37,187 bases of DNA from a virus. Taxonomy: Duplodnaviria > Caudoviricetes. The notes beneath the pieces were generated by a model. That model was not told the DNA's origin and made no database searches. It saw nothing but the letters and a program-made list of their open reading frames with translations. A program made the position numbers and the translations under genes. Below are positions 1 through 37,187 of the stretch, one piece after another (within the stretch, counting starts at the first letter, position 1; each line of letters begins with the position of its first letter). The stretch is taken from the IMG/VR virus record IMGVR_UViG_3300032274_000766, positions 1 to 37,187 of that record; one strand, given 5' to 3'.

Positions 1-93
1 CCAACCATCACGATCATCACCAACCTTTTCAGCGGCGAGGCGTTGACAGTTATCAAGACGTTCGCGGGTCCAGTCTTCAACGCTTAACGGCAT
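1..93 (-). CDS. Phage hypothetical protein, 5' part only (MPLSVEDWTRERLDNCQRLAAEKVGDDRDGW...), runs off the window edge
   Basis: ATG at 93 (minus) preceded by AGAAAGGAAA RBS; frame stays open to position 1; continues the leftward operon. Confidence 0.6.
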   Translation of the reverse strand, partial: MPLSVEDWTRERLDNCQRLAAEKVGDDRDGW

Positions 94-128
94 CGTCGTT
101 TCCTTTCTGGTTTGAAATCTCGGACATA

Positions 129-989
129 TCAAAAACCCCGCCCTGGCACGTACTTGGCGCGGGGCGTTCCCTCGCCGTTCTGGACCCGTAAATATTTATC
201 CGTCTCGCAAAGGATATTCGGCACGTCGCTGAAATCCAGGTCGATGCCGGTTTCATTTGACGCGATGCGATAGATGACGCGCATTTCGCTGAGGGCTTGT
301 TCTTGGGAAAGCGATTGCTTTACCTGCCGACCGTGAAGGCGGTTCAATCCCCGGATCGTGCCCGGCCCTGCAGCCGCCCAGGATTGCACGTCCGGCGCGT
401 TTTCGAGCAAGGGGGTGAAGCGCATATCGACGACGGCTTGATAGGCCATGAACGGTCCCCAGCCATTGGAACGGGTGAGCATTCCATGGATTTCCTGAAT
501 GGTTGATGACTGGCTAAGGGCGCGCTCTATGGCCTCGCGGCGTTTCCAAAGCGCACCGCAGACCGTTTCGGCGATGTATGCTTGTTTATCCGCGCCTTTT
601 GTCGATGGTGCGGAAATCATATAAGCCCCGGTGTAGACCTTTTCGCCTCGCGCCTTCCTGTCATTCAATATTGTGGTTATCTGGGCAGGATCAAACGTTT
701 CATGATCTGGCCAAGCGCCCGATGAAATAAGTTCGGTCAGGGTGGCAGGCCAATTTATTTGACGGGCGACGCACAACATAAACCAAAGGGCGGAGTAATC
801 AGCGAAGCGTTCCCGGATGTTCTCGCGTATCCACTTTGTTCCCCGGTCATCTTCCCGACGAACATTGCAGAACCGATAGGCGGCGATAATCGGATCGTCT
901 GAATAAGGCGGATGATCGTGGTCTTTACGAATACGGGTCGCCTCGCGCTCTTTCATCCAGTGCCACAGCGGCTGATAATCAACAGTCAT
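129..989 (-). CDS. 5-hmdU DNA kinase helical domain / alpha-glutamyl-putrescinyl thymine pyrophosphorylase clade 1-like protein (HhH DNA-glycosylase-like fold)
   Basis: Motifs DDPII..YRFCNVRREDDRGT.WI, YTGAYMI, GPFMAYQ.VVD, GPG..RGLNRL, CETDKY.R..GEG.PR..Y recognised from this family; start moved to MTVDYQ (989), which has a GAAAGGAA RBS. Confidence 0.75.
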   Translation of the reverse strand: MTVDYQPLWHWMKEREATRIRKDHDHPPYSDDPIIAAYRFCNVRREDDRGTKWIRENIRERFADYSALWFMLCVARQINWPATLTELISSGAWPDHETFDPAQITTILNDRKARGEKVYTGAYMISAPSTKGADKQAYIAETVCGALWKRREAIERALSQSSTIQEIHGMLTRSNGWGPFMAYQAVVDMRFTPLLENAPDVQSWAAAGPGTIRGLNRLHGRQVKQSLSQEQALSEMRVIYRIASNETGIDLDFSDVPNILCETDKYLRVQNGEGTPRAKYVPGRGF

Positions 990-1055
990 CGGAAGTGTTC
1001 CTTTCAGGGGACGAGTCCGGGCAGGCAAATTTTCGGCGGCCCGGATTGTCGGTAT

Positions 1056-1667
1056 TTATGCGGTTCTGGCTTTGGCTCTGGCCTTTTGCAGCTTTTCTTC
1101 CTGGGCCAGCAGGTAGCGGTTTTCTGACCTGTACCAAGTGTTGCGGCCTACTTTTAAGAACGTGCAAAGCTGGCTGACGTTCCAGTGCTGGTATTTCAGC
1201 AGGTCGAGCCCCGCCTTGATGTCCTTGTCTTTCAACTTCGGTTTTCTGCCGCCCATGCGACCGCGTTTTTTGGCCGCAGCCAGTCCGGCCTTGGTGCGTT
1301 CGGAAATCATCGCCCGTTCCAGTTCGGCCAGTGCGCCCAACAGGTGAAACAGGAAATTCCCCATCGCCGATGTGGTGTCGATCTTGTCCTGAATGCTGAC
1401 AAGGTCCACGCCGCGACTGTGTAGTTTTTCGCTGAGTTCGATCAGGTCTTTTAGCGAGCGCGAAAGCCGGTCCAGCTTCCACACCACCAGCACGTCGCCC
1501 TTGCGTAAATATTTCAGGGCTTCCTGCAGGGCGGGCCGTTTGGTGTCCTTGCCGGATTTCTTTTCCTCGAACAAAAATTCCTGTTCGACGCCTTCTTTGA
1601 GCAACGCATCGCGCTGCAAATCCAGTTTCTGATCTTCGGTCGATACACGCGCGTATCCTATTTTCAT
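1056..1667 (-). CDS. Small serine recombinase (resolvase/invertase, Pin/Hin-like) with C-terminal HTH
   Basis: MKIGYARVST catalytic Ser motif, GDVLVVWKLDRLSRS, AELER.MISERTKAGL.AA..RGR.GGRKP; AGGAG RBS before ATG 1667. Confidence 0.93.
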   Translation of the reverse strand: MKIGYARVSTEDQKLDLQRDALLKEGVEQEFLFEEKKSGKDTKRPALQEALKYLRKGDVLVVWKLDRLSRSLKDLIELSEKLHSRGVDLVSIQDKIDTTSAMGNFLFHLLGALAELERAMISERTKAGLAAAKKRGRMGGRKPKLKDKDIKAGLDLLKYQHWNVSQLCTFLKVGRNTWYRSENRYLLAQEEKLQKARAKARTA

Positions 1668-1733
1668 GGGTAGAACTCCTAAATCGGAATTCCCCCCCAT
1701 GCTCTCGGGTGAAGGTGGTTTGGATGGCGGCGG

Positions 1734-2312
1734 TCATGCGGCGGCGCTCGGCGGCAGCGGGTCGCCTGCCAATTCGGCGAAGCGGCCCAGGAACATTTTC
1801 TGCGCCTGTGTTTCGTGCCAGGGCTCGGGCAATGTTTCGCGGCCTTTGCCATTTATGAAAAAAAGATTTTCCGACTGTGCGGTCCTGACCGGCGGGGTCA
1901 TGTGGTCGCGGCCTTCCCACGCGAGGGCCAGGGCGTCCATGTCCTTGACGACTTGTGGCATGGGCCATGGCAGGTCGAAGCGTTCGGCGACGGCGCGTTC
2001 AATCGCTTCCTCGACAGTCCTGAAATCCGGTAACTGGCGCTTAAGCGGGGTGATGCAGTCCCCGGTGTAGGCTTCCGCCGCGTCGTGCAACAGGCCCCAC
2101 AGGGCGTATTCCGGGCAAAAGGTATCGCACAGCCATGAAACCCGGACCGAATGTTCGGCGACGGATGATGTCAGGGCGGTGTTGGTCCAACCGTTCCAGC
2201 GGGCGGTGCGGGAAAGTGCGCGGGCGATATCGAAAATATGAATGTCTGCGGCGCGCGGGGCCAGCACATCGATGTGTGCGCCGGTGCCGGTCTGGGCGAT
2301 GGATGAATTCAT
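1734..2312 (-). CDS. HD-domain phosphohydrolase (phage YfbR/5'-deoxynucleotidase-like)
   Basis: DIARALSR..RWNG, SVAEHS, LLHDAAEAYTGD..TPLK motifs. Confidence 0.85.
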   Translation of the reverse strand: MNSSIAQTGTGAHIDVLAPRAADIHIFDIARALSRTARWNGWTNTALTSSVAEHSVRVSWLCDTFCPEYALWGLLHDAAEAYTGDCITPLKRQLPDFRTVEEAIERAVAERFDLPWPMPQVVKDMDALALAWEGRDHMTPPVRTAQSENLFFINGKGRETLPEPWHETQAQKMFLGRFAELAGDPLPPSAAA

Positions 2313-3203: not shown

Positions 3204-3263
3204 GCGGGAACGGTAGTGCGGGAATTACCCCTTGTCAACAGGAAATGAGGTATATTTCCCGCA
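3201..3263 (-). promoter_or_regulatory. PL-like leftward promoter (leaderless) with two operator sites
   Basis: Minus strand TTGACA(3238-3233)-17 nt-TACCGT-6 nt-ATG; operator-like 18-mers at 3217-3234 and 3246-3263 related to TGCGGG-N6-CCCGCA. Confidence 0.7.
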
Positions 3264-3312
3264 CTTTGTTGCAGACATGTGTGTGGCTTGTGGAAAAGTG
3301 TAGCGGGCGGGC

Positions 3313-3999
3313 TTAGATTGTGGCGCGGTAAACGCGGACAATGACGCCGAACACCGTGGTCGTCGTGGCGTCGGTATCACCGAGGATTTGCGCTTTGTTG
3401 GCCGGGTTATGGGAATGCGGCTCAAGGATGCCTGCGTAAAAGGCGCGCAGCAAGGTCTTGGCAGTGCCGCGCTGGTTATCGACACATTGGGCGACGACGG
3501 CCTGACCGGGCTGTGGGGCCAGTTCCGGATCGACGATAAGAAAGTCGCCGGGCATGATGCCAAAGCGGGTCATGGCGTCGGTAGAACAGCGCATCCACAC
3601 GGCATGTGTCCGGTTTGGATAAAGCGTGGCCAGTAGAGCGTCGCCGCCTTCGCCAGGGCCTTCAAAGCTGGCGTTATCTTCGGCCAGGCCGCGCAGGGCG
3701 GTCAGTTCGTGAATTCTACGGGTGTCGGGATGGTCCGGGTCAATGGCCGCGCCGCGATTAAGGGCTTCGGCTTGCCTGTTGGTGCCGTGGTTGCCGGTGC
3801 CGGTCAATAGCCAGTCGATGGAACAGTCAAGGGCGGCGGCGAGTTTCGCCAGCTTGTCGCCGCCAGGCGCGCCGCCACCCCGGCGGCGGATGTCGCGGAT
3901 GGTGTCGACACCAAGGCCCGCTTTCAGGCATGCCTTGCGTTCGCTCCAGCCTAATGCTTTCAGGCGATGCTCGATGCGGGCGATTAAAGAATCGGTCAT
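3313..3999 (-). CDS. CI-like repressor: XRE HTH plus degenerate S24 peptidase domain
   Basis: N-terminal HTH (RLKALGWSERKACLKAGLG...LAKLAAALDCSIDWLLTG); C-terminal DAM..GIMPGDFLIVDP...GQAVVA...FGVIV; divergent from the cro-like gene. Confidence 0.85.
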   Translation of the reverse strand: MTDSLIARIEHRLKALGWSERKACLKAGLGVDTIRDIRRRGGGAPGGDKLAKLAAALDCSIDWLLTGTGNHGTNRQAEALNRGAAIDPDHPDTRRIHELTALRGLAEDNASFEGPGEGGDALLATLYPNRTHAVWMRCSTDAMTRFGIMPGDFLIVDPELAPQPGQAVVAQCVDNQRGTAKTLLRAFYAGILEPHSHNPANKAQILGDTDATTTTVFGVIVRVYRATI

Positions 4000-4020: not shown

Positions 4021-4087
4021 TGCGGGAAATACATTCGGGAAAATTCCCGTTGACAATGCGGGGCAATTCCCGCAATGTCGGGTTATG
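4021..4087 (+). promoter_or_regulatory. PR-like rightward promoter (leaderless) with operator sites
   Basis: TTGACA(4050-4055)-17 nt-CAATGT-6 nt-ATG(4085); palindromes TTCGGGAAAATTCCCGTT (4034-4051) and TGCGGGGCAATTCCCGCA (4057-4074); half site at 4021. Confidence 0.72.
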
Positions 4088-5654: not shown

Positions 5655-5817
5655 AGGGGCGCGGTTGATTTTTTCCGACACCGGTGATGGTGGGTTGTGT
5701 CTGGTCATCGACCACGGCGGGTTAGCCGGGCGGGTGCTGATCGATGCGCCGGAACGGCAAGAATTAAAGGTGTGGCTTGATGACGCCGGGGACGGGGAGG
5801 CGAAAACGGATGACTGA
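5641..5817 (+). CDS. Small hypothetical protein
   Basis: GTG start with GGAAGAG upstream; overlaps both neighbours. Confidence 0.5.
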   Translation: MLNLKGARLIFSDTGDGGLCLVIDHGGLAGRVLIDAPERQELKVWLDDAGDGEAKTDD

Positions 5818-6553
5818 AATGATAACCATCGGCGATGCGACGCTTTACCTGGGCGACTGCCGCGACGTGCTGGACGACATCGCGCCTGCCGATCTGGGGC
5901 TTACCGATGCGCCGTACAAACTGACGACCGGCGGTAAAGCGCAGGGCGGCAAGTCCATGTCCGGTATTTTTGCCGCCCATAATTACGCCAACGACGGCGA
6001 ACTGGTGATGACGCCGGTGGAATGGGGTGACGTGGTGATGATCATGTACGGCCTTCTTAAAGCGGACGCCGATTGTTATTTGATGGCCAACGATAAGGAA
6101 ATATTCAAGGCCAGAAATAACGCCCTGCAAGCAGGTTTCAACCTTCACAATCTGTTGGTCTGGTGGAAAATCAGCGGCACCGCCAATCGCTGGTACATGA
6201 AGGACTGTGAATTTACGGCCTATCTGTGGAAGGGCCGGGCCAAGACGATCAATAATCCGGGCTCCAAGCAATTGACGCCCGGTGCGCAAAAAGACCAGTC
6301 GGACCACCCGACGGAAAAACCGGTCGGCCTGATGGCGCAGTACATCACCAATTCGTCAGAACCGGGAGACGTGGTGCTTGACCCGTTCATGGGCAGCGGC
6401 ACGACCGGCGTCGCGGCTATAGAAACCGGGCGCAAATTCATCGGCTGTGAACTGGACCCTAAATTCTTCGAGATGGCCTGCGAGCGCATCCGCCTGGCGC
6501 TGCCGCCAAGACGCGAAGCACCGCCGCGCACCCTGTTCGATGACGCGGCATGA
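5810..6553 (+). CDS. Orphan N4-cytosine/N6-adenine DNA methyltransferase (beta class)
   Basis: LYLGDC, motif IV variant TDAPY, HPTEKP, motif I VLDPFMGSGTTG, FIGCELD; GGGGAGG RBS. Confidence 0.92.
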   Translation: MTEMITIGDATLYLGDCRDVLDDIAPADLGLTDAPYKLTTGGKAQGGKSMSGIFAAHNYANDGELVMTPVEWGDVVMIMYGLLKADADCYLMANDKEIFKARNNALQAGFNLHNLLVWWKISGTANRWYMKDCEFTAYLWKGRAKTINNPGSKQLTPGAQKDQSDHPTEKPVGLMAQYITNSSEPGDVVLDPFMGSGTTGVAAIETGRKFIGCELDPKFFEMACERIRLALPPRREAPPRTLFDDAA

Positions 6554-6894
6554 ACGGGCCTAAACGGGTGCAGCGGACACGCACGAAAGGCGGTGGCATG
6601 CCGCCGGGGGCGGTTTATGTTGGCAGGCCGGGGCGGTGGGGCAATGGCTTCCCGGTGGGCAAGCCGCTTTTGGGCGAACCGCCGCTCAGTGCCGCCGAGG
6701 CGGTGGAAAAATATCGCGTTTGGGTGATTTTTCAGATCCGCGCCGGGGTGCTTGATCTTGACGAACTGGTTGGCCACGACCTGGCTTGCTGGTGCGCCCT
6801 TGATAAACCCTGCCACGCGGACGTGTTGATTGACCTTGCCAGCGCTTCCGCACGGCGTTTGGGGAAGCGTGTACGCGGAGCCCGTAAACCATGA
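6550..6894 (+). CDS. DUF4326-like protein
   Basis: PKRVQR.R.KG..MP.GAVYVGRP.RWGN.F, L.GHDLACWC....PCHADVL. Confidence 0.85.
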   Translation: MNGPKRVQRTRTKGGGMPPGAVYVGRPGRWGNGFPVGKPLLGEPPLSAAEAVEKYRVWVIFQIRAGVLDLDELVGHDLACWCALDKPCHADVLIDLASASARRLGKRVRGARKP

Positions 6895-7697
6895 AGTCCG
6901 AAAAACAAAAAGGCGATACCACGACCATCGAATGGGTGACCGCCGTGGCGCGGGCGCGGGGTATGCGCGCCGCCGTGTGGAACCCGCAGCGCGGCTGTTC
7001 AAGGGCCGGGGCCGGGTGTGACCATTGCTGGGCGGCGAAAGTCGCGTGGATGCGCGGGCAGCAGAAAAACCCAAAAATGCAGGCCAAGTACGCCGGGCTG
7101 ACCCGCAAGCGCGGCGATATCATTGAATTTAACGGCACGGTGCGCCCGGTTTGGGAAGATTTTGCCATCCCGCTTAAAACGTCCGCGCCGACGGTTTACT
7201 TCATGGGATCAGAGACAGACCTGTTCCACCCCAATTCAAACCCGGAATATATGGAATTGTGTTTCGATGTTGCCGGGCTTTGCCCACAGCACTTGTTTTT
7301 GGTGCTGACAAAGCGTCCCGACCGGATGCGGGAATTTGTCGCCGCCGACAGGATGGATGGACGCGCGCACAACGTCTGGCTTGGCACCAGCGTCTGGGAC
7401 CCGCCCAGCGCCGAAAAATATATTCCCGATTTGCTGGCCACCCCGGCGGAAAAACATTTTGTTTCTTACGAGCCCGCGCTGGTGCCGGTTGATTTCTCGC
7501 CCTGGTGGTTCGACTGGCTGATTGCCGGATGTCAGTCGTCGCCCAACGTGGCGATGCCCGCTTTAACGCCGCAGGCTTTGCAGAAATTCTGTGCCCGGCG
7601 CGGCATCGGCTTTTTTTATAAACAGGATGTGATTGGCGGCAAGCTGGTGCATCTGCCGGAAATCTTCGGCAAGTCGTGGACCGAGGTGCCGCGATGA
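6891..7697 (+). CDS. Phage Gp37/Gp68 (DUF5131) family protein, three-Cys radical-SAM-like
   Basis: TTIEW, WNP..GCSRAGAGCDHCWA, DLFH, PQH.FLVLTKRP.RM, NVWLGTSV, FVSYEP.L, FFYKQ. Confidence 0.88.
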   Translation: MKSEKQKGDTTTIEWVTAVARARGMRAAVWNPQRGCSRAGAGCDHCWAAKVAWMRGQQKNPKMQAKYAGLTRKRGDIIEFNGTVRPVWEDFAIPLKTSAPTVYFMGSETDLFHPNSNPEYMELCFDVAGLCPQHLFLVLTKRPDRMREFVAADRMDGRAHNVWLGTSVWDPPSAEKYIPDLLATPAEKHFVSYEPALVPVDFSPWWFDWLIAGCQSSPNVAMPALTPQALQKFCARRGIGFFYKQDVIGGKLVHLPEIFGKSWTEVPR

Positions 7698-11247: not shown

Positions 11248-12618
11248 ATGGTGAAACCTTCGTTTCGACTTAAGGTCGAAGCCTGGCCTGTTGAGGCATT
11301 GGCACCGGCTTTAAGAAATCCGCGCGAGCATCCGGTTGGACAGCTTGCGGCGTTAAAGAATTCTATTCTGGCCTTCGGGTTTAATAATCCGATTTTGGCA
11401 AGTTCTGACGGCAGCATTATCGCCGGGGAAGCGCGCTGGTTGGTGGCTGGCGATCTGGGCATGGCCCAGGTTCCGGTCATCGTGCTGGATCATTTAAGTG
11501 AGAACGAACGCCAGGCCTACGCGCTGGCCGACAACAAGATACCGCTGGGCGGTGTTTGGGACGAAGAAATGCTGGGCCAGATCATGGCCGACCTTGAGGC
11601 GGTGGCCTTCGATATTTCGCTGACCGGTTTCAGCGACGGTGAGATTGACGACCTGCTGGCGTTGGCCGCCGGTGATGTGCTTGAGGATTTAGACCAGGCA
11701 CCGCCGCCGCCGGTTGTTGCGGTCAGTCAGATTGGCGATGTCTGGGAGTTGGGCGAACACCGCCTGATTTGTGGTGACAGCACGAAGACCGAGACGTTCG
11801 AGAAATTGCTTTCCGGTCAAACCGCCGGGAGCGTTGTTTGTGACATGGTTTTTACCGACCCGCCTTATGGCATGGCTTATGATGGCGGGCGGGCTTTGAG
11901 GGAAGCGCCGGGGCTGGTTTTCACAGACCCGCCGTACGGTATGAGTTTCGGGGCTGGCAAGGAAGCCGGTTCGACGGCGAAGGGCTCGCTGGTTAAAGCC
12001 CACGGTCAGATCATCGGTGATGATGCGCGCGGGGAGGACCTGGTTAATCTGGTTGGTGAGGCATTGAAACGGGCGCACGAAGTGGCCTGGCCGGAGGCGG
12101 CGTTTTATGTTTGTTTTACCTGGCGGACTTACTGCGAATTTGAGCGCGGGCTTAAAGAGGCTGGCTTAAACATTGCGGCCTGCATCGTTTGGGATAAAGG
12201 TTCCATCGGGCTGGGTCATCAACACTACCGACCGCAGCATGAATTTATCTTTTACTGCAAGGGTGCAAACTGGAACGGCGGCAAGGGCGAAAGCGACATT
12301 TGGGAATTTTCGCGCGGGCATACTGAAAGCTATGTTCACCCGACGCAGAAACCGGTTGATCTGATCAAGCGCGCCATCGGTAATTCGAGCCGTCGCGGCG
12401 ATCTGGTGCTGGACCTGTTCGGCGGTTCGGGTTCTACCGTCATTGCCTGCGAGGCGATGGGGCGGCGGGCGCGGGTGGTTGAACTGGACCCTAAATATTG
12501 TGATGTGATCGCCTGTCGATGGCAACAATTTGCGGGTGGCGCGGCGCGGCTTTTGGGCGACGGTCAGAGCTTTGATGAAACGGCGCTCTCAAGGAAAAAC
12601 ACAGGAACCATTGCATGA
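11248..12618 (+). CDS. ParB-N domain fused to N4/N6 DNA methyltransferase
   Basis: RNPREH...SI..FGFNNPIL...IIAGEAR...ADNK (ParB-N); GDVWELGEHRLICGDS, DPPY twice, HPTQKP, VLDLFGGSGST. Confidence 0.92.
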   Translation: MVKPSFRLKVEAWPVEALAPALRNPREHPVGQLAALKNSILAFGFNNPILASSDGSIIAGEARWLVAGDLGMAQVPVIVLDHLSENERQAYALADNKIPLGGVWDEEMLGQIMADLEAVAFDISLTGFSDGEIDDLLALAAGDVLEDLDQAPPPPVVAVSQIGDVWELGEHRLICGDSTKTETFEKLLSGQTAGSVVCDMVFTDPPYGMAYDGGRALREAPGLVFTDPPYGMSFGAGKEAGSTAKGSLVKAHGQIIGDDARGEDLVNLVGEALKRAHEVAWPEAAFYVCFTWRTYCEFERGLKEAGLNIAACIVWDKGSIGLGHQHYRPQHEFIFYCKGANWNGGKGESDIWEFSRGHTESYVHPTQKPVDLIKRAIGNSSRRGDLVLDLFGGSGSTVIACEAMGRRARVVELDPKYCDVIACRWQQFAGGAARLLGDGQSFDETALSRKNTGTIA

Positions 12619-24096: not shown

Positions 24097-24290
24097 GCGT
24101 TCATCCGCAGCACCTTGTCGGGGACCTGCTCGAAGTGGTGCAGTTGTGGCGGGTGTTTAAAAAGTCGGCAACACTTCCAGACACCGGCGGCTGGTTGCAA
24201 CAAGCGGCGTGGACGATTGATGCGTTCGTCATCATCGAGACGGCGCTGGAAACGCTAAAGGAGGCGCGGCGGGAATTGATAGGGCGTTAA
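23964..24290 (+). CDS. gpT-like -1 frameshift extension of the tail chaperone (gpGT = 23365-24290)
   Basis: The -1 frame is open for 108 codons: KLKLAVAWAFWPGDF...LPDTGGWLQQAAWTIDAFVII...ELIGR*; it has no ATG of its own and is missing from the ORF track. Confidence 0.75.
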   Translation, partial: KLKLAVAWAFWPGDFAGGEAFTAENPAHKDEDFWSLPEIGFEKLGVHPQHLVGDLLEVVQLWRVFKKSATLPDTGGWLQQAAWTIDAFVIIETALETLKEARRELIGR

Positions 24291-24577
24291 GGCGTATGCA
24301 AGGCGCGCACGGCGGTTTCTGGTTCCTTGTCGATAATGTGCAGCAGGGCGGCGGCGGGGCCATCGGGGTGGCGGCGACCCTGTTCCCAATTGCGCAGGGT
24401 GCCGATGGGAATGTGAAAGACGGCGGAAAACCTGGCCTGGCTAAGTTTTGTTTTGGCGCGGATTTTTTTAACATCGGGTCGTGGGAAAGTGTGGATGATG
24501 CAGTCGATGTCCTCGCCTGCGGCGTGGGCGGCGGCTTCTTTCAGGCCAGCCATGATTTGGTCAAAGGCTTTGCTCAT
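24287..24577 (-). CDS. higA: HigA-type XRE HTH antitoxin
   Basis: MSKAFDQIMAGLKEA, DVKKIRAKTKLSQARFS...GTLRNWEQGRR.PDGPA..LL.II. Confidence 0.88.
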   Translation of the reverse strand: MSKAFDQIMAGLKEAAAHAAGEDIDCIIHTFPRPDVKKIRAKTKLSQARFSAVFHIPIGTLRNWEQGRRHPDGPAAALLHIIDKEPETAVRALHTP

Positions 24578-24930
24578 TTTGGGTGACTTTCCTTCCAGTT
24601 TTTAACGGTGGTTTCGACAAATAATTTCAGTTGTTTTAATTCGGCTTTTGAAAGATTGGTTTTTTCGTTCTTGGTAAACACGGCCAACATATAAACCGGC
24701 ATGTCGGTGTTGCGGAAATAATAAACGACCCGCGCACCGCCACTTTTGCCCCGGCCTGAAAGTGCGACCCGCACTTTGCGAACACCGCCGCTGCCGACAA
24801 TGATGTCGCCAACCATGGGGTCGGCTGAAATCATGTCGATGGTGTTGGTTTTTTCCTGTTCGGAAAAGACTCGCTTGGCCTTGGCGATAAAAGGCGCGGT
24901 TTCGATAACGGTGATCATTGTGTTTTCCAT
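24574..24930 (-). CDS. higB: RelE/HigB-2-type toxin
   Basis: TVIET..F, P..GDII.GSGGVRKVR....GRGKSGGARVVYY, L..F.KNEK.NLS; toxin-first order. Confidence 0.9.
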   Translation of the reverse strand: MENTMITVIETAPFIAKAKRVFSEQEKTNTIDMISADPMVGDIIVGSGGVRKVRVALSGRGKSGGARVVYYFRNTDMPVYMLAVFTKNEKTNLSKAELKQLKLFVETTVKNWKESHPK

Positions 24931-24992
24931 GATCTAAATATACGCCATTGGCGTACTTAGATCAAGAAAAAAAGTAAATCATTGGCGTATAT
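24930..24992 (-). promoter_or_regulatory. higBA promoter with palindromic operator
   Basis: Minus strand TTGATC-17 nt-TATATT-6 nt-ATG; palindrome TACGCCATTGGCGTA (24941-24955) flanked by TGATCTAA/TTAGATCA; second CATTGGCGTA at 24980-24989. Confidence 0.7.
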
Positions 24993-25010
24993 TATTTAGG
25001 AGGATTTTTA

Positions 25011-25298
25011 TTATGAATGAGGGTTTGTCACACCAGGCTGTTCGGAAGGAACCGCCGCGCCCGTTTGTTGCTGAAGCTGGGCAAGCAGATTCAGCAGATA
25101 CATCGCGTTCGGAATGTTCACCCAGAACTTTACATATTCGCCTTTATGGTCGAGTCCACTTATGGATACCAGGGAATCCGCCGGCGTCGATTCTCCTTGA
25201 GACATCACCCCTTCTACCTTTTCCCAGCGCAATTCCGGGGGGAAGTTAGCCAGAAACGCACGGTGGTTATATTCATCCATGTCAATTGTATCCGTCAT
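25011..25298 (-). CDS. Hypothetical protein (95 aa)
   Basis: Strong AAGGAGG RBS; protein-like composition. Confidence 0.7.
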   Translation of the reverse strand: MTDTIDMDEYNHRAFLANFPPELRWEKVEGVMSQGESTPADSLVSISGLDHKGEYVKFWVNIPNAMYLLNLLAQLQQQTGAAVPSEQPGVTNPHS

Positions 25299-25355
25299 TG
25301 TTTCCTCCTTTTGGTTGTGAAGGGGGAGGATGGCAGAAACGGTAACGAGAGTCGA

Positions 25356-25592
25356 TCAGGAGGATTTTTTCAGGCGGACACCGGGGCCGGAACCGTTCTC
25401 GGCGATGAACTCAACCCCGGCGGCTTCGAGGGCGGTTTGGATGGCGGCGAGTGTGCTGTTGTGAGGAGAGCGGGCATCAGATTCAAAATCAGCGATTGTC
25501 CGCTTGGCGACCTTTGACCCAGCCGTGAGGTTATCACGAGACCAATTAAGAAGGGCGCGAGCAGCGCGGCACTGTGAAGGCGTTATAGACAT
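25356..25592 (-). CDS. Small XRE-family HTH regulator
   Basis: ITPSQCRAARALLNWS...L......V..RTIADFE...R.P...TL.AI..ALE.AGVEFI.ENG.GPGVRL. Confidence 0.9.
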   Translation of the reverse strand: MSITPSQCRAARALLNWSRDNLTAGSKVAKRTIADFESDARSPHNSTLAAIQTALEAAGVEFIAENGSGPGVRLKKSS

Positions 25593-25619
25593 AAATAAAT
25601 CCAAATTGCTTCTTTTGCG

Positions 25620-25650
25620 TTGACAATTATGTAATTGTTGCCTTTAATAC
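25620..25650 (+). promoter_or_regulatory. Promoter for the BRO gene overlapped by a near-palindromic operator
   Basis: TTGACA 25620-25625, AT-rich -10 region 25643-25650; ACAATTATGTAATTGT at 25623-25638. Confidence 0.55.
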
Positions 25651-25685
25651 GCATAAGTTACCCTTTTGAAGTGGATTTAGCAACA

Positions 25686-26405
25686 ATGCAAACACAGACA
25701 TCCAGTTTGGTTCCGACATTAATGACCCTCGATTTTGAGGGTGATGCGGTTCGGATTGACCCACGGGACGGTGAGCCATGGTTTGTTGCAAAAGATATTT
25801 GCCGGTGTTTGGAAATAGATAATCCGAGCGATGCCCTTAAACGACTTGATGAGGATGAGGTTACCCTAGGTTCAATCGAGGGGAACCATCGTCAGATTAA
25901 TCTAATCAACGAACCTGGGATGTATTCCTTGATTCTTGGTAGCCGCAAGAAATCGGCGAAAAAGTTCAAGCGCTGGGTGACCCATGAAGTCTTGCCGACG
26001 ATCCGGCGGACCGGGTCTTACGGTGTGGCGGGGTTCGACATGGAACAGGAAGCCGATGACACCCGGCTTTATTTGAACCTGGTCAACGAATGCCGTCGTA
26101 CCTTCGGGCGGGCGGCGTCGCAGCGCATGTGGCGGTTGCTGCCTTTGCCGCAGGTCGATGATGGTCCGCGACAGATTGCCGTTGGCGATCACGCCATCGA
26201 CAGGTTTATGGACGAACGGACCGAGACTGGCGAGAATTTCAAATCTCGCGCCTCGGACCTGTACGCCGCCTACGCCGACTGGTGCGCAAAAAATGGAACG
26301 GCTTCGGCAAGCCTGACGGCATTTGGCCGGGCGCTGGGCGAGCGCTACGTCAAGAACAAAGGCAACGGAGGATTTATCTGGTACGAGGGGGTGACCCTGA
26401 CATGA
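25686..26405 (+). CDS. BRO-N (antirepressor-like) protein fused to a D5/P4-type C-terminal winged helix
   Basis: F.G..VRI...DGEPWFVAKDIC..L.I.N...AL.RLDEDE, INEPGMYSLIL.SRK..AKKFKRWVTHEVLPTIRRTGSY; C-terminus aligns by eye with the C-terminus of the 8347 helicase. Confidence 0.85.
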   Translation: MQTQTSSLVPTLMTLDFEGDAVRIDPRDGEPWFVAKDICRCLEIDNPSDALKRLDEDEVTLGSIEGNHRQINLINEPGMYSLILGSRKKSAKKFKRWVTHEVLPTIRRTGSYGVAGFDMEQEADDTRLYLNLVNECRRTFGRAASQRMWRLLPLPQVDDGPRQIAVGDHAIDRFMDERTETGENFKSRASDLYAAYADWCAKNGTASASLTAFGRALGERYVKNKGNGGFIWYEGVTLT

Positions 26406-26656
26406 CGGCGCTGTTGGAAAGCGAAGTGACGCGGGGCGGTATCGCGGCGTTTCTGGAAATGACTGGCGATGAGTTCGAGCCCGTAGCCGGATATGAAAAG
26501 GGCGGTGACATGTTTTTACCGTCGCCGATGATCGAAAGTCGAGACGTGGGCGCATACGCGGGGAAAAATTTGTGGTGGGTAGGAATCAGATTAAAAAAAC
26601 ATCCGGACTTGCTGATGTCCGTCGCCCGCCGAGAGTTGCGGCTGCCGGTGCTGTAA
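26402..26656 (+). CDS. Hypothetical protein
   Basis: ATGA overlap with the BRO gene; GAGGGG RBS. Confidence 0.6.
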   Translation: MTALLESEVTRGGIAAFLEMTGDEFEPVAGYEKGGDMFLPSPMIESRDVGAYAGKNLWWVGIRLKKHPDLLMSVARRELRLPVL

Positions 26657-26729
26657 TAGTCCTTCAAGGAGGGCGAGGGCGGACCGTAAGAGACGCCTCC
26701 CCCGGCAGCCGTTTGTTAAGTTGAAAGGT

Positions 26730-27596
26730 TCATCCCTCGTCTTGGGGTAATTTTATACTTTCGAGATAAGCAGATGGTTGACCGTGTTCAATCCATTCGA
26801 GAAGGCCGTGCAAGACCGGGATTAATTCACCCGTTTTTGCGTCAATGGCTTCTTCGATGTTGTAGATGTTAAAAAATCTTGGCGCTTTTCGAAGATGGCA
26901 ATATGCCTGAATATATTTTGGGTATTTCTCACCGTGTAGCGCCTTGACGGTAATGGGACGCTGTGTTTCGTTATCGTCTTTATCGAAGTAGCAAAGTATC
27001 CAATTAAGGTCGAGGCCATCTAACAGGACAGGGCCTGGATCAAACTTGAAAGGTTTGGAATCGTTTTCTTCATCATCGAAGTCTTCATCATCGTCGTCAT
27101 CCCAGTCGTCCAAGTCTAATCCCTTGACCTCGATTTTGAAATTTAGGCTATCGACAAAGGCTTCATTATCTATCTCTACATCGCCGTCTTCGGTGATAGA
27201 GGCATATTCGGCGGACATTAACGGCATATCGCAGTGCGGGCAGGTGTCCTGTCCGGCATAGGTTTCCTTGTTGCAAGCAGCGCAGGTGATGATGTCTGTC
27301 TGGTTGGTGGCGGACTTTTTGGCGCTAGGGCCGCTCGGAACTACGGTTTTAGTGAACTCGTGACCGCAATGGCGGCAGATGCGGGCGTCTGGTTGGACTT
27401 GTTCGGCGCAATCAGGGCATTTTTTTGAAATTTCGGCGGTTGGTTCTTCCTTGATTGTGGGAAGGGCGAACAGGACCAGTATTGCAATTGGCAGCAGTAG
27501 ACAAATGGTTGCCCATCCGGCAGCGCTGCGATTTTTGCCGCTGGCGACAGCGCCGCCAAGAACAGCTGCGGCGACCCAAATAATAATATATTCCAT
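26730..27596 (-). CDS. Membrane protein with two zinc ribbons, acidic linker and C-terminal WYL-like domain
   Basis: GGAGG RBS, start MEYIIIW; 2 TM helices (..VASGKNRS..GW..); CPDC/CRHC and CAAC/CPHC; DDWDDDDDEDFDDEE; Y.DKD...T.R.I....YIQAYCHLRKAPR.F. Confidence 0.75.
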   Translation of the reverse strand: MEYIIIWVAAAVLGGAVASGKNRSAAGWATICLLLPIAILVLFALPTIKEEPTAEISKKCPDCAEQVQPDARICRHCGHEFTKTVVPSGPSAKKSATNQTDIITCAACNKETYAGQDTCPHCDMPLMSAEYASITEDGDVEIDNEAFVDSLNFKIEVKGLDLDDWDDDDDEDFDDEENDSKPFKFDPGPVLLDGLDLNWILCYFDKDDNETQRPITVKALHGEKYPKYIQAYCHLRKAPRFFNIYNIEEAIDAKTGELIPVLHGLLEWIEHGQPSAYLESIKLPQDEG

Positions 27597-36686: not shown

Positions 36687-37187
36687 TTATTTATGTCGCC
36701 ATTCCCCCGGCGTCATAAACGGCCCTGACCAGATACCCCGGCGCGCCGCCTTGGCGAGCGCTTCCTCCCCCACATACAGATTCGAATATTTCCGATAGGC
36801 CATGGCCAAGCCGTCAAGAACCAGTTGGCGGGCGATGTTCTTACCGCCTGCCTCACAGGTCGCCAGGGCGCGCTTGAATTTGTCGCGGCCTTCCGGCCTG
36901 CAGGCGACGACCTGGCCGTCGATCATCGCCCTGACTGCCGCCGTGGCGGCTTCCCCACACGCCCATTCTGCGCCCGCAGCGCCGCAAGTCTGATTCCATT
37001 CCGGCGCATCGATGCCTTGAACACGGATTTCAATATCGCCGCCCCGGCACCTTCCCTTAACCATTTCCCCGCCGATGATCAGGCTGTCGCCATCGATCGC
37101 GCAAGCGCGCCCGGTGATAACCGTTTCGGCGGCGGTGGTGATGGCGGACGACATAAAAAATAGCCCCAAAATGATGATGATAATCAT
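36687..37187 (-). CDS. Thermonuclease (SNase family) with signal/membrane anchor; the 5' end may lie beyond the window
   Basis: IDGDSL, IRVQGIDAPE..Q.C, W.CG..A, D.FKR.LA.C, LV..GLA.AYRKYS..Y...E..AK.ARRGIW.G.F..P.EWR. Confidence 0.92.
   Translation of the reverse strand: MIIIIILGLFFMSSAITTAAETVITGRACAIDGDSLIIGGEMVKGRCRGGDIEIRVQGIDAPEWNQTCGAAGAEWACGEAATAAVRAMIDGQVVACRPEGRDKFKRALATCEAGGKNIARQLVLDGLAMAYRKYSNLYVGEEALAKAARRGIWSGPFMTPGEWRHK

What the first reader, a model, noticed from the sequence alone, without database searches (positions are those of the whole stretch)
129..2312. Thymine-hypermodification-type gene plus HD nucleotidase in the early operon of a temperate phage
Seen: 129-989 carries the motifs of the aGPT-Pplase1/5-hmdU-kinase helical family but has no P-loop kinase domain, and it shares an operon with an HD 5'-deoxynucleotidase-like gene. 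Known: this family is characterised mainly in lytic phages that replace T with 5hmU and need a dUMP hydroxymethylase and a kinase. Neither enzyme is in this window, and a prophage replicated by the host cannot be globally 5hmU-substituted. Inference: either the partners lie left of the window, or the stand-alone domain does different chemistry, for example acting on or sensing the modified DNA of competing phages.
Basis: partly seen in the sequence, partly recalled or inferred. Interest (0 to 1): 0.7.

Follow-up and report, generated by a model that had tools for sequence, protein, structure and literature searches.

The report
Orphan thymine-modification enzyme in a prophage
This prophage carries an intact gene of a phage DNA-base-modification family, from a lineage that mostly lacks the family's partner enzymes; the protein likely converts stray hydroxymethyluracil in the phage's own DNA, and the nearby HD gene is not a conserved partner.

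Summary
129-989 is a real PF18723 (aGPT-Pplase clade 1) gene: 286 aa, purifying selection, predicted HhH fold like the PaMx11 gp46 transferase. Lacking a kinase domain is normal, since M6-like phages encode the kinase separately. What is unusual is the lineage. In whole virus records, 0 of 29 close relatives have a thymidylate-synthase-type gene, the kinase or the transferase, against 11, 10 and 10 of 12 distant ones. Two exceptions turned up later (L060, L099). The HD gene is real but is no partner: a resolvase gene lies between them, and only 5 of 29 relatives carry a similar HD gene, never adjacent. The DNA left of the window could not be read. The operon sits behind a repressor-type promoter, so action in lytic growth is likelier than lysogen defence. 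The protein keeps the transferase's catalytic Cys and aromatic clamp but not its amino-acid-binding lysines. My best reading (0.35) is a kinase-independent enzyme that converts 5hmU in the phage's DNA to thymine or caps it, as counter-defence or repair. This is untested. The scan found this orphan lineage before on other DNA (e1-3778381, e1-5324054).

The parts
129..989 (-). PF18723 / aGPT-Pplase clade 1 protein, 286 aa, orphan lineage; invariant Cys261-Glu262, HhH motif at 176-184
   Evidence: Pfam E 6e-49; alignment; AlphaFold pLDDT 95; VIA-align Z 10.2 to PaMx11 gp46; tree
1056..1667 (-). Serine resolvase / DNA invertase gene between the two genes of the finding; not a conserved neighbour
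   Evidence: PF00239 E 8e-50, phrog_125 E 5e-70; no homologue in any other locus held
1734..2312 (-). HD-domain 5'-deoxynucleotidase-like (YfbR-like) gene; ordinary early-operon cargo, not a partner
   Evidence: PF12917 E 4e-9, phrog_318 E 2e-51; similar gene in 5 of 29 orphan-clade records, none adjacent; not hit by the profile of the HD gene of 5hmU phages
1..93 (-). Start of a small ORF cut by the contig end; lies in a repeat of about 415 bp at 2.6 times the prophage depth, which breaks the assemblies
3215..3265 (-). Predicted PL-type promoter (TTGACA at 3238-3233, weak -10) between two GCGGGAAWT boxes, heading the leftward operon
   Evidence: inverted repeat I4; 6 boxes in the window against 1.85 expected, 4 of them flanking cI; geometry; the strict sigma-70 scan called no promoter
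3313..3999 (-). cI-like repressor (HTH + S24)
4022..4073 (+). Predicted PR-type promoter (TTGACA at 4050) with the matching pair of boxes

Best explanation
129-989 encodes an intact HhH-fold PF18723 protein of a lineage that mostly travels without pathway partners, and it likely acts in lytic growth as a kinase-independent enzyme that would flip 5-hydroxymethyluracil out of the phage's own DNA and convert it to thymine or cap it. Proposed steps, all inferred: Phe180 and Cys261 clamp the base; Cys261 adds to C6; Glu262 protonates the hydroxyl so that water leaves; a cellular reductant or small nucleophile quenches the exocyclic methylene. The phage does not make 5hmU. It would come from outside: host cassettes that pair a thymidylate-synthase-like gene with PF18723 and MazG or Nmad2 (DS-4 type), a co-infecting 5hmU phage, or oxidation. 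The gene would then be counter-defence or repair cargo, like the orphan methyltransferases in the same operons. The HD and resolvase genes are unrelated cargo.
For: Shown: family, fold and conservation. dN/dS 0.08-0.23 in 11 of 12 pairs, one saturated. Cys261 99% and Glu262 98% among 146 diverse representatives, both invariant in 124 closer sequences. One clade of 39 of 70 rows, SH-aLRT 95. No TS, kinase or transferase in 29 of 29 records. The family tracks the 5hmU-making TS more than the kinase: L048, L049, L060 and L105 have TS within 1 kb, but no kinase or transferase hit in 9 kb or more upstream, and L048's complete 218-kb record has neither. L060, nested in the orphan clade, adjoins a TS 40-45% identical to the phage hydroxymethylases. 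Profile comparison aligns Phe180, Gln184 and Asp188 with the transferase's Trp, Lys and Asp (weak). In solved transferases Trp146 and Cys247 clamp the base and two lysines hold the glycine (passages of PMC11472151; PMC13458397). Literature: M6 gp55 is dispensable for glycine transfer, and gp51 plus borohydride yields thymidine (PMC8989533); how 5hmU becomes T is stated as unknown (PMC5889632). DS-4 (TS, dNMP kinase, PF18723, TIR/NDT, Nmad2) restricts lambda (PMC13092281 tables S7, S8).
Against: No activity has been shown for any clade-1 protein in the papers I read, and the lysate experiments containing gp55, gp160 or gp50 report no thymine formation in the text or legends seen. The protein has no cofactor-binding domain, so the hydride source is unexplained. 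Equivalence of Cys261 with gp46 Cys247 rests on motif spacing and position; the profile comparison did not reach that region (probability 6.9%), and fold scores are tied with glycosylases (Z 10.2 against 9.9, 9.8 and 9.4). The metal-binding Glu position is Pro257 in this clade. Only 1 of 14 host genomes with an orphan copy has a second, host-type copy, and such cassettes are rare (8 of 401). DS-4's effect is weak (about 10-fold, one phage listed), and the role of its PF18723 gene is untested in what I saw. Some orphan copies lie outside prophages (L059 among metabolic genes, L066 among conjugation genes). The promoter and operators are predictions.
Confidence: 0.35

Rival explanations
1. Weapon or sensor against 5hmU or hypermodified phages: the protein traps or damages modified incoming DNA and protects the lysogen.
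For: No partner needed; copies also occur in non-phage settings (L059, L066); a family member is part of the validated defence unit DS-4.
Against: The gene lies in the leftward early operon behind operator boxes shared with PR, and no internal promoter was called. L060 sits beside a 5hmU-type TS. The one phage listed for DS-4 is lambda, whose DNA is canonical. No effector or nuclease partner recurs.
Confidence: 0.17
2. It installs a sparse, unknown modification on the phage's own T or U with a host metabolite, needing no 5hmU, as anti-restriction.
For: Catalytic Cys kept. DNA methyltransferase genes lie within the fetched flanks of 17 of 29 orphan viral loci and directly upstream in L011/L012, L016 and L018. 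Family members are fused to primase-helicase, Pol A and Pol III alpha domains.
Against: No background rate for methyltransferases was measured, and they are common in such phages. Unactivated thymine has no leaving group at the 5-methyl (established chemistry). No co-substrate gene recurs.
Confidence: 0.17
3. A base-excision glycosylase of the HhH superfamily that removes damaged or foreign pyrimidines.
For: All 25 best fold matches are HhH-type proteins, nearly all glycosylases or the queuine salvage hydrolase. P0124 carries a weak HhH-GPD match in an extra N-terminal domain (E 9e-5, below cut-off). Asp188 and Asp200 are 97-98% conserved.
Against: The top match is the Cys-dependent transferase, and Cys-Glu is near-invariant. 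The usual catalytic Asp position appears to be Gly208 (motif comparison from memory, not tested). Fusion to a separate glycosylase-like domain suggests a different job.
Confidence: 0.15
4. Part of a complete 5hmU pathway whose other genes lie left of the contig break or in the host.
For: The left flank is unread; CheckV calls the record 55% complete. Two clade members have a TS (L060 adjacent; L099 about 13 kb away, beside a weakly kinase-like gene).
Against: 0 of 29 records, and 1 of 4 further clade records (that one has its own Pol A gene). All head, tail, lysis, replication and immunity genes are already in the window, and L001, L002, L006, L008, L010, L016 and L038 show no such genes around the same position.
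Confidence: 0.07
5. A non-catalytic DNA-binding protein or a decaying relic.
For: Pro257 replaces the Glu or Gln at the metal-ligand position.
Against: dN/dS about 0.1 with active-site residues fixed; Pro257 also occurs in the TS-linked L060 and L102.
Confidence: 0.05

Closest known systems
Pseudomonas phage M6 gp55 / ViI gp160 / PaMx11 gp50 / Pam3 aGPT-Pplase1 (PF18723)
   Same: Same Pfam family, 42% identity to M6 ORF055 and 44% to the Pam3 protein over almost the full length; same invariant Cys-Glu; also without a kinase domain.
   Different: Those sit between kinase, transferase and dUMP hydroxymethylase genes in lytic phages. This lineage mostly has none of them, is shorter (about 285 against 300-340 aa), has Pro for Gln at 257 and lacks an insert near 130. 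Function is unknown for both.
Amino acid:DNA transferase (aGPT-Pplase2, PF18724), PaMx11 gp46, PDB 8z2m/8z2n
   Same: Best fold match (Z 10.2, rmsd 4.7, 227 residues); HhH aromatic and a Cys on the last long helix in matching motif spacing.
   Different: No PF18724 match; 10-13% identity; the two glycine-binding lysines correspond to Gln184 and Glu262 and the metal Glu to Pro257 (inferred); no kinase to make the phosphorylated substrate.
DS-4 (NTTI) defence unit of E. coli, PMC13092281
   Same: Contains a stand-alone PF18723 protein with the same Cys-Glu motif.
   Different: Five genes, including TS, dNMP kinase, TIR/NDT and Nmad2; chromosomal; none of these partners is in the window.
YfbR-like HD 5'-deoxynucleotidases of temperate phages (phrog_318)
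   Same: 1734-2312 matches with intact H...HD...D residues (read from the sequence).
   Different: Not the HD subfamily that follows TS in 5hmU phages; activity untested.

Membership tests
PF18723 HMUDK_hel (aGPT-Pplase clade 1) | Score above the curated cut-off over the full profile | tested here: met
   167 bits against 25, profile 4-277 of 281
PF18723 HMUDK_hel (aGPT-Pplase clade 1) | Conserved R15, F-x-N, R45, D48, R76, N79, D188, D200, GPG and C-E-x-x-K residues | tested here: met
PF18723 HMUDK_hel (aGPT-Pplase clade 1) | All-helical HhH glycosylase-like fold | tested here: met
   pLDDT 95; top 25 VIA-align rows are HhH-type, Z 5.1-10.2, next row 4.2; Foldseek gave no E<=0.001
5-hmdU DNA kinase (PF18748/PF18747) | P-loop kinase domain | tested here: not met
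   No P-loop family in the protein; kinase profile finds nothing in the window
Amino acid:DNA transferase (PF18724) | Profile match | tested here: not met
   No PF18724 hit at E<=0.01; profile-profile probability 6.9%
Amino acid:DNA transferase (PF18724) | E-T-x-x-C-K active-site motif with metal-binding Glu and glycine-binding Lys | tested here: inconclusive
   Cys present at matching spacing, but P-N-I-L-C-E; residue equivalence not shown by superposition
Thymine hypermodification pathway (M6/ViI/phiW-14/SP10 type) | dUMP hydroxymethylase, 5-HMUDK and transferase in the same genome | tested here: inconclusive
   Absent from the 37 kb held and from 29 of 29 close relatives; the left end of this prophage is unread
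Thymine hypermodification pathway (M6/ViI/phiW-14/SP10 type) | Modified thymine in virion DNA | not testable with these tools
   needs LC-MS
HhH-GPD DNA glycosylases | PF00730 match and catalytic Asp after the HhH motif | tested here: inconclusive
   No PF00730 hit; fold similar; Asp position judged only from recalled motifs
DS-4-type host cassette | TS-like plus MazG, Nmad2 or dNMP kinase genes beside PF18723 | tested here: not met
   Neighbours are a resolvase, an HD gene and small ORFs; no PADLOC hit for the two genes; left flank unread
YfbR-like HD 5'-deoxynucleotidase | PF12917 above cut-off with HD motif | tested here: met
   36.7 bits against 25.9; motif read from the sequence

The most novel reading that the evidence does not exclude
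PF18723 is the long-missing enzyme that turns 5hmU in DNA into thymine, without a kinase. Temperate alphaproteobacterial phages have taken it as a stand-alone eraser that defeats host defence cassettes which load DNA with modified uracil (TS-like + MazG + PF18723, DS-4 type). That would be a new counter-defence class and a DNA-editing tool.
Probability: 0.15. Interest if true: 0.85.

Novelty: new variant of a known kind. Interest (0 to 1): 0.45.

Why it matters
Clade 1 is shared by all four founding thymine-hypermodifying phage groups, yet no activity is reported in the papers searched, and the conversion of 5hmU to T in their DNA is a stated open question (PMC5889632). A conserved lineage that works without pathway partners shows that the family has a job of its own, and it offers small stand-alone proteins and a minimal natural cassette (L060: PF18723 + TS) for a direct test. 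The locus itself is one more member of a lineage the scan has already noted, and the HD pairing adds nothing.

Tried and rejected
Left flank: the 241-kb parent scaffold (L067) and a second contig (L068) end one base left of the window, and Logan contigs branch there, so nothing further could be read. The right-hand host DNA of L067 was not available. HD as partner: rejected; a reverse scan for relatives of the HD gene found none. Tet/JBP dioxygenase as another 5hmU source: 0 of 42 records, but no control rang, so this is uninformative; PMC13229309 notes that the Pfam model misses many such enzymes. PDB sequence search: no match (best E 0.29). NCBIfam and PADLOC: no hit for the two genes. Pro257 as a marker of changed function: rejected, it occurs in TS-linked L060 and L102. 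Recombinase sites or an invertible segment: only chance-level repeats. Expression: no RNA holder listed. Host-type copy in the same genomes: 1 of 14, MAGs incomplete. The careful tree did not finish; quick trees were used. Iyer et al. 2013 is not held and is known here only through citations. No complex prediction was run.

Full report
Observation. The window is a whole 37,187-base record classed as a provirus, 55% complete by CheckV. It is lambda-like: cI, D5 primase, two N6/N4 methyltransferases, gpA terminase, portal, gpE capsid, tape measure and endolysin (44 ORFs scanned). ORF 129-989 (-) is a 286-aa PF18723 protein (E 6e-49) with no other domain. ORF 1734-2312 (-) is a YfbR-like HD protein (E 4e-9). 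The order from the repressor leftwards is: small ORFs, HD, resolvase, PF18723, then an ORF cut by the contig end.

The missing kinase domain is not special. In the M6-like loci the kinase is a separate upstream gene. Table 3 of PMC5889632 shows a kinase fusion only in SP10. Pfam's name 'kinase, helical domain' is misleading for a stand-alone copy.

What lies left. An exact DNA pattern found a 241-kb scaffold and a 1.2-kb contig, both ending one base left of the window. Logan contigs of two runs, which may be the source of this DNA, show window 1-126 in a contig of about 415 bp at 2.6 times the depth of the prophage contig. The break is a repeat, and the flank could not be read. The question was therefore answered through relatives.

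Relatives. There are 1,408 homologues of similar length and 3,344 representatives at 50% identity. Of 51 viral loci, 29 are 56-77% identical and 22 are 35-49%. I searched the whole records of all 29 close loci and of 12 of the 22 distant ones. Thymidylate-synthase family: 0 of 29 against 11 of 12. Kinase, single-protein query: 0 of 29 against 10 of 12. Transferase profile: 0 of 29 against 10 of 12. Six close records are at least 90% complete. Three pairs among the 29 are near-copies (L011/L012, L019/L020, L022/L024), so about 26 are distinct. Pfam scans covered 118 cluster representatives and the 259 singleton genes of at least 100 aa from close loci; they show temperate-phage accessory genes (methyltransferases, DUF5131, DUF4326, ASCH, integrases) and no constant partner. 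In a tree of 70 rows, near-copies and protein-only hits left out, the window falls in a clade of 39 rows with SH-aLRT 95 (one search agrees at 87). Of 15 genome loci, 14 belong to the close group, 13 of them in records titled as Alphaproteobacteria or genera of that class; five repeat viral loci. No cultured phage exceeds 47% identity (133 records matched, 40 listed).

Exceptions, which matter. L060, nested in the clade, is a chromosomal cassette: PF18723, then a TS 40-45% identical to the phage hydroxymethylases, an unassigned gene and a convergent dCTP deaminase-like gene. L099's phage has a TS and a weakly kinase-like gene about 13 kb away (1 of 4 further clade records). L059 lies among metabolic genes and L066 among conjugation genes. 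So 'always orphan' and 'only in prophages' are both too strong.

The HD gene. A homologue occurs in 5 of 29 close records and 0 of 12 distant ones. It is about 2 kb upstream on the same strand in L001, about 7 kb downstream in L009, and 12-13 kb away on the other strand in three. 5hmU phages often have an HD gene after TS, but its profile does not hit the window. The pairing is best read as shared residence in a cargo operon.

Protein anatomy. The model is confident (pLDDT 95). The best fold match is the PaMx11 gp46 glycine:DNA transferase (Z 10.2), tied with an 8-oxoguanine glycosylase, the queuine salvage enzyme and Mag1 (Z 9.9-9.4). Foldseek ranks gp46 first but below significance. Cys261-Glu262 is invariant in 124 sequences and 99/98% conserved in 146 representatives. 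The transferases carry E-T-x-x-C-K; the window has P-N-I-L-C-E, and 36% of representatives have Glu at the first position. A weak profile alignment pairs Phe180, Gln184 and Asp188 with the transferase's Trp, Lys and Asp. In the solved enzymes Trp and Cys clamp the flipped base, Glu-Thr bind a metal and two lysines hold the glycine. Inference: clade 1 keeps the base clamp and the nucleophile, has lost the amino-acid site, and has an acid next to the Cys. Selection is purifying (dN/dS 0.08-0.23 in 11 of 12 pairs).

Regulation. Four of six GCGGGAAWT boxes (1.85 expected; 0 of 100 shuffles reach six) flank cI in two pairs, each around a TTGACA. This is the PL/PR layout, so the operon is likely repressed in the lysogen. 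The strict promoter scan called nothing and no RNA data exist, so an internal promoter is not excluded.

Host systems. PF18723 occurs in 10 of 401 genomes of the class. Of nine host-type loci, 7 have MazG_C, 5 IrrE, 4 a divergent TS-fold gene (probability 87.5%, E 4e-6), 3 Nmad2 and 2 a dCTP deaminase. DS-4 of E. coli joins TS, dNMP kinase, PF18723, TIR/NDT and Nmad2 and lowers lambda plating about 10-fold with smaller plaques.

Mechanism. The family follows the 5hmU-making enzyme more closely than the kinase, is dispensable for hypermodification, and is present in phages whose DNA ends up with T although they incorporate 5hmU. I therefore favour a kinase-independent 5hmU-converting enzyme, used by temperate phages on 5hmU that arrives from host cassettes, co-infecting phages or oxidation (0.35). 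Rivals: attack on modified phages (0.17), a new self-mark (0.17), glycosylase (0.15), hidden partners (0.07), non-catalytic (0.05). Family, fold, orphan state and the failure of the HD link are shown; substrate, product and timing are inferred.

Novelty and sources. Five literature searches found no paper on an orphan clade or on a clade-1 activity; PMC5889632 already notes homologues in cells and other viruses. Seen: PMC8989533 (passages, Discussion, supplement legends), PMC5889632, PMC11472151, PMC13458397 and PMC13229309 (passages), bioRxiv 2025.01.08.631726 (one passage), PMC13092281 (passages, rows of tables S5, S7, S8). Its supplementary PDF and the figure panels of Lee 2022 were not visible and may bear on DS-4 gene roles and on whether gp55-type lysates make T. 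Iyer 2013 was not held. Two earlier scan reports describe this lineage on other DNA (made after my reading was formed). New here are the L060 and L099 exceptions, the host cassettes and DS-4 link, the operator layout and the active-site comparison.

Noticed in passing
window 1056-1667: Stand-alone serine resolvase/invertase gene inside the early-left operon, with no homologue in the loci held and no clear inverted sites.
   Followed up: partly
window 1-126: Part of a repeat of about 415 bp at 2.6 times the prophage depth, holding the start of a small gene; it breaks all assemblies seen and may be shared with another prophage.
   Followed up: partly
L060:10001-13620: Chromosomal cassette: orphan-clade PF18723, phage-type dUMP-hydroxymethylase-like TS, an internally duplicated unassigned gene and a convergent dCTP deaminase-like gene; a minimal test system.
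   Followed up: partly
L088-L095: Alphaproteobacterial cassettes of HTH, IrrE, a divergent TS-fold gene, MazG_C and PF18723, or MazG_C, PF18723 and Nmad2; candidate defence systems related to DS-4. L088 lies beside a Cap4/HamA gene.
   Followed up: partly
P0122, P0142, P0146, P0221, P0124, P0140: PF18723 fused to primase/helicase-type regions, Pol A, Pol III alpha, or a short glycosylase-like N-terminal domain.
   Followed up: partly
L048:6606-11900 and L049: PF18723 with TS and TET-associated glycosyltransferase genes but no kinase or transferase; L048's 218-kb record is complete. Possibly a glycosylated 5hmU pathway.
   Followed up: no
window 5810-7697 and 11248-12618: Two N6/N4 methyltransferases (one ParB-fused), DUF4326 and DUF5131 genes, the same cargo that often flanks the orphan gene in relatives.
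   Followed up: partly
window 24287-27596 and 36687-37187: Minus-strand small genes, a BRO antirepressor and a zinc-ribbon gene interrupt the tail operon; an SNase-like gene lies at the right end.
   Followed up: no
L003:9456-11357: Portal protein fused to an Acb1 anti-CBASS domain.
   Followed up: no
L038:6883-8570: bAvd plus reverse transcriptase (diversity-generating retroelement) two genes upstream of the orphan gene.
   Followed up: no
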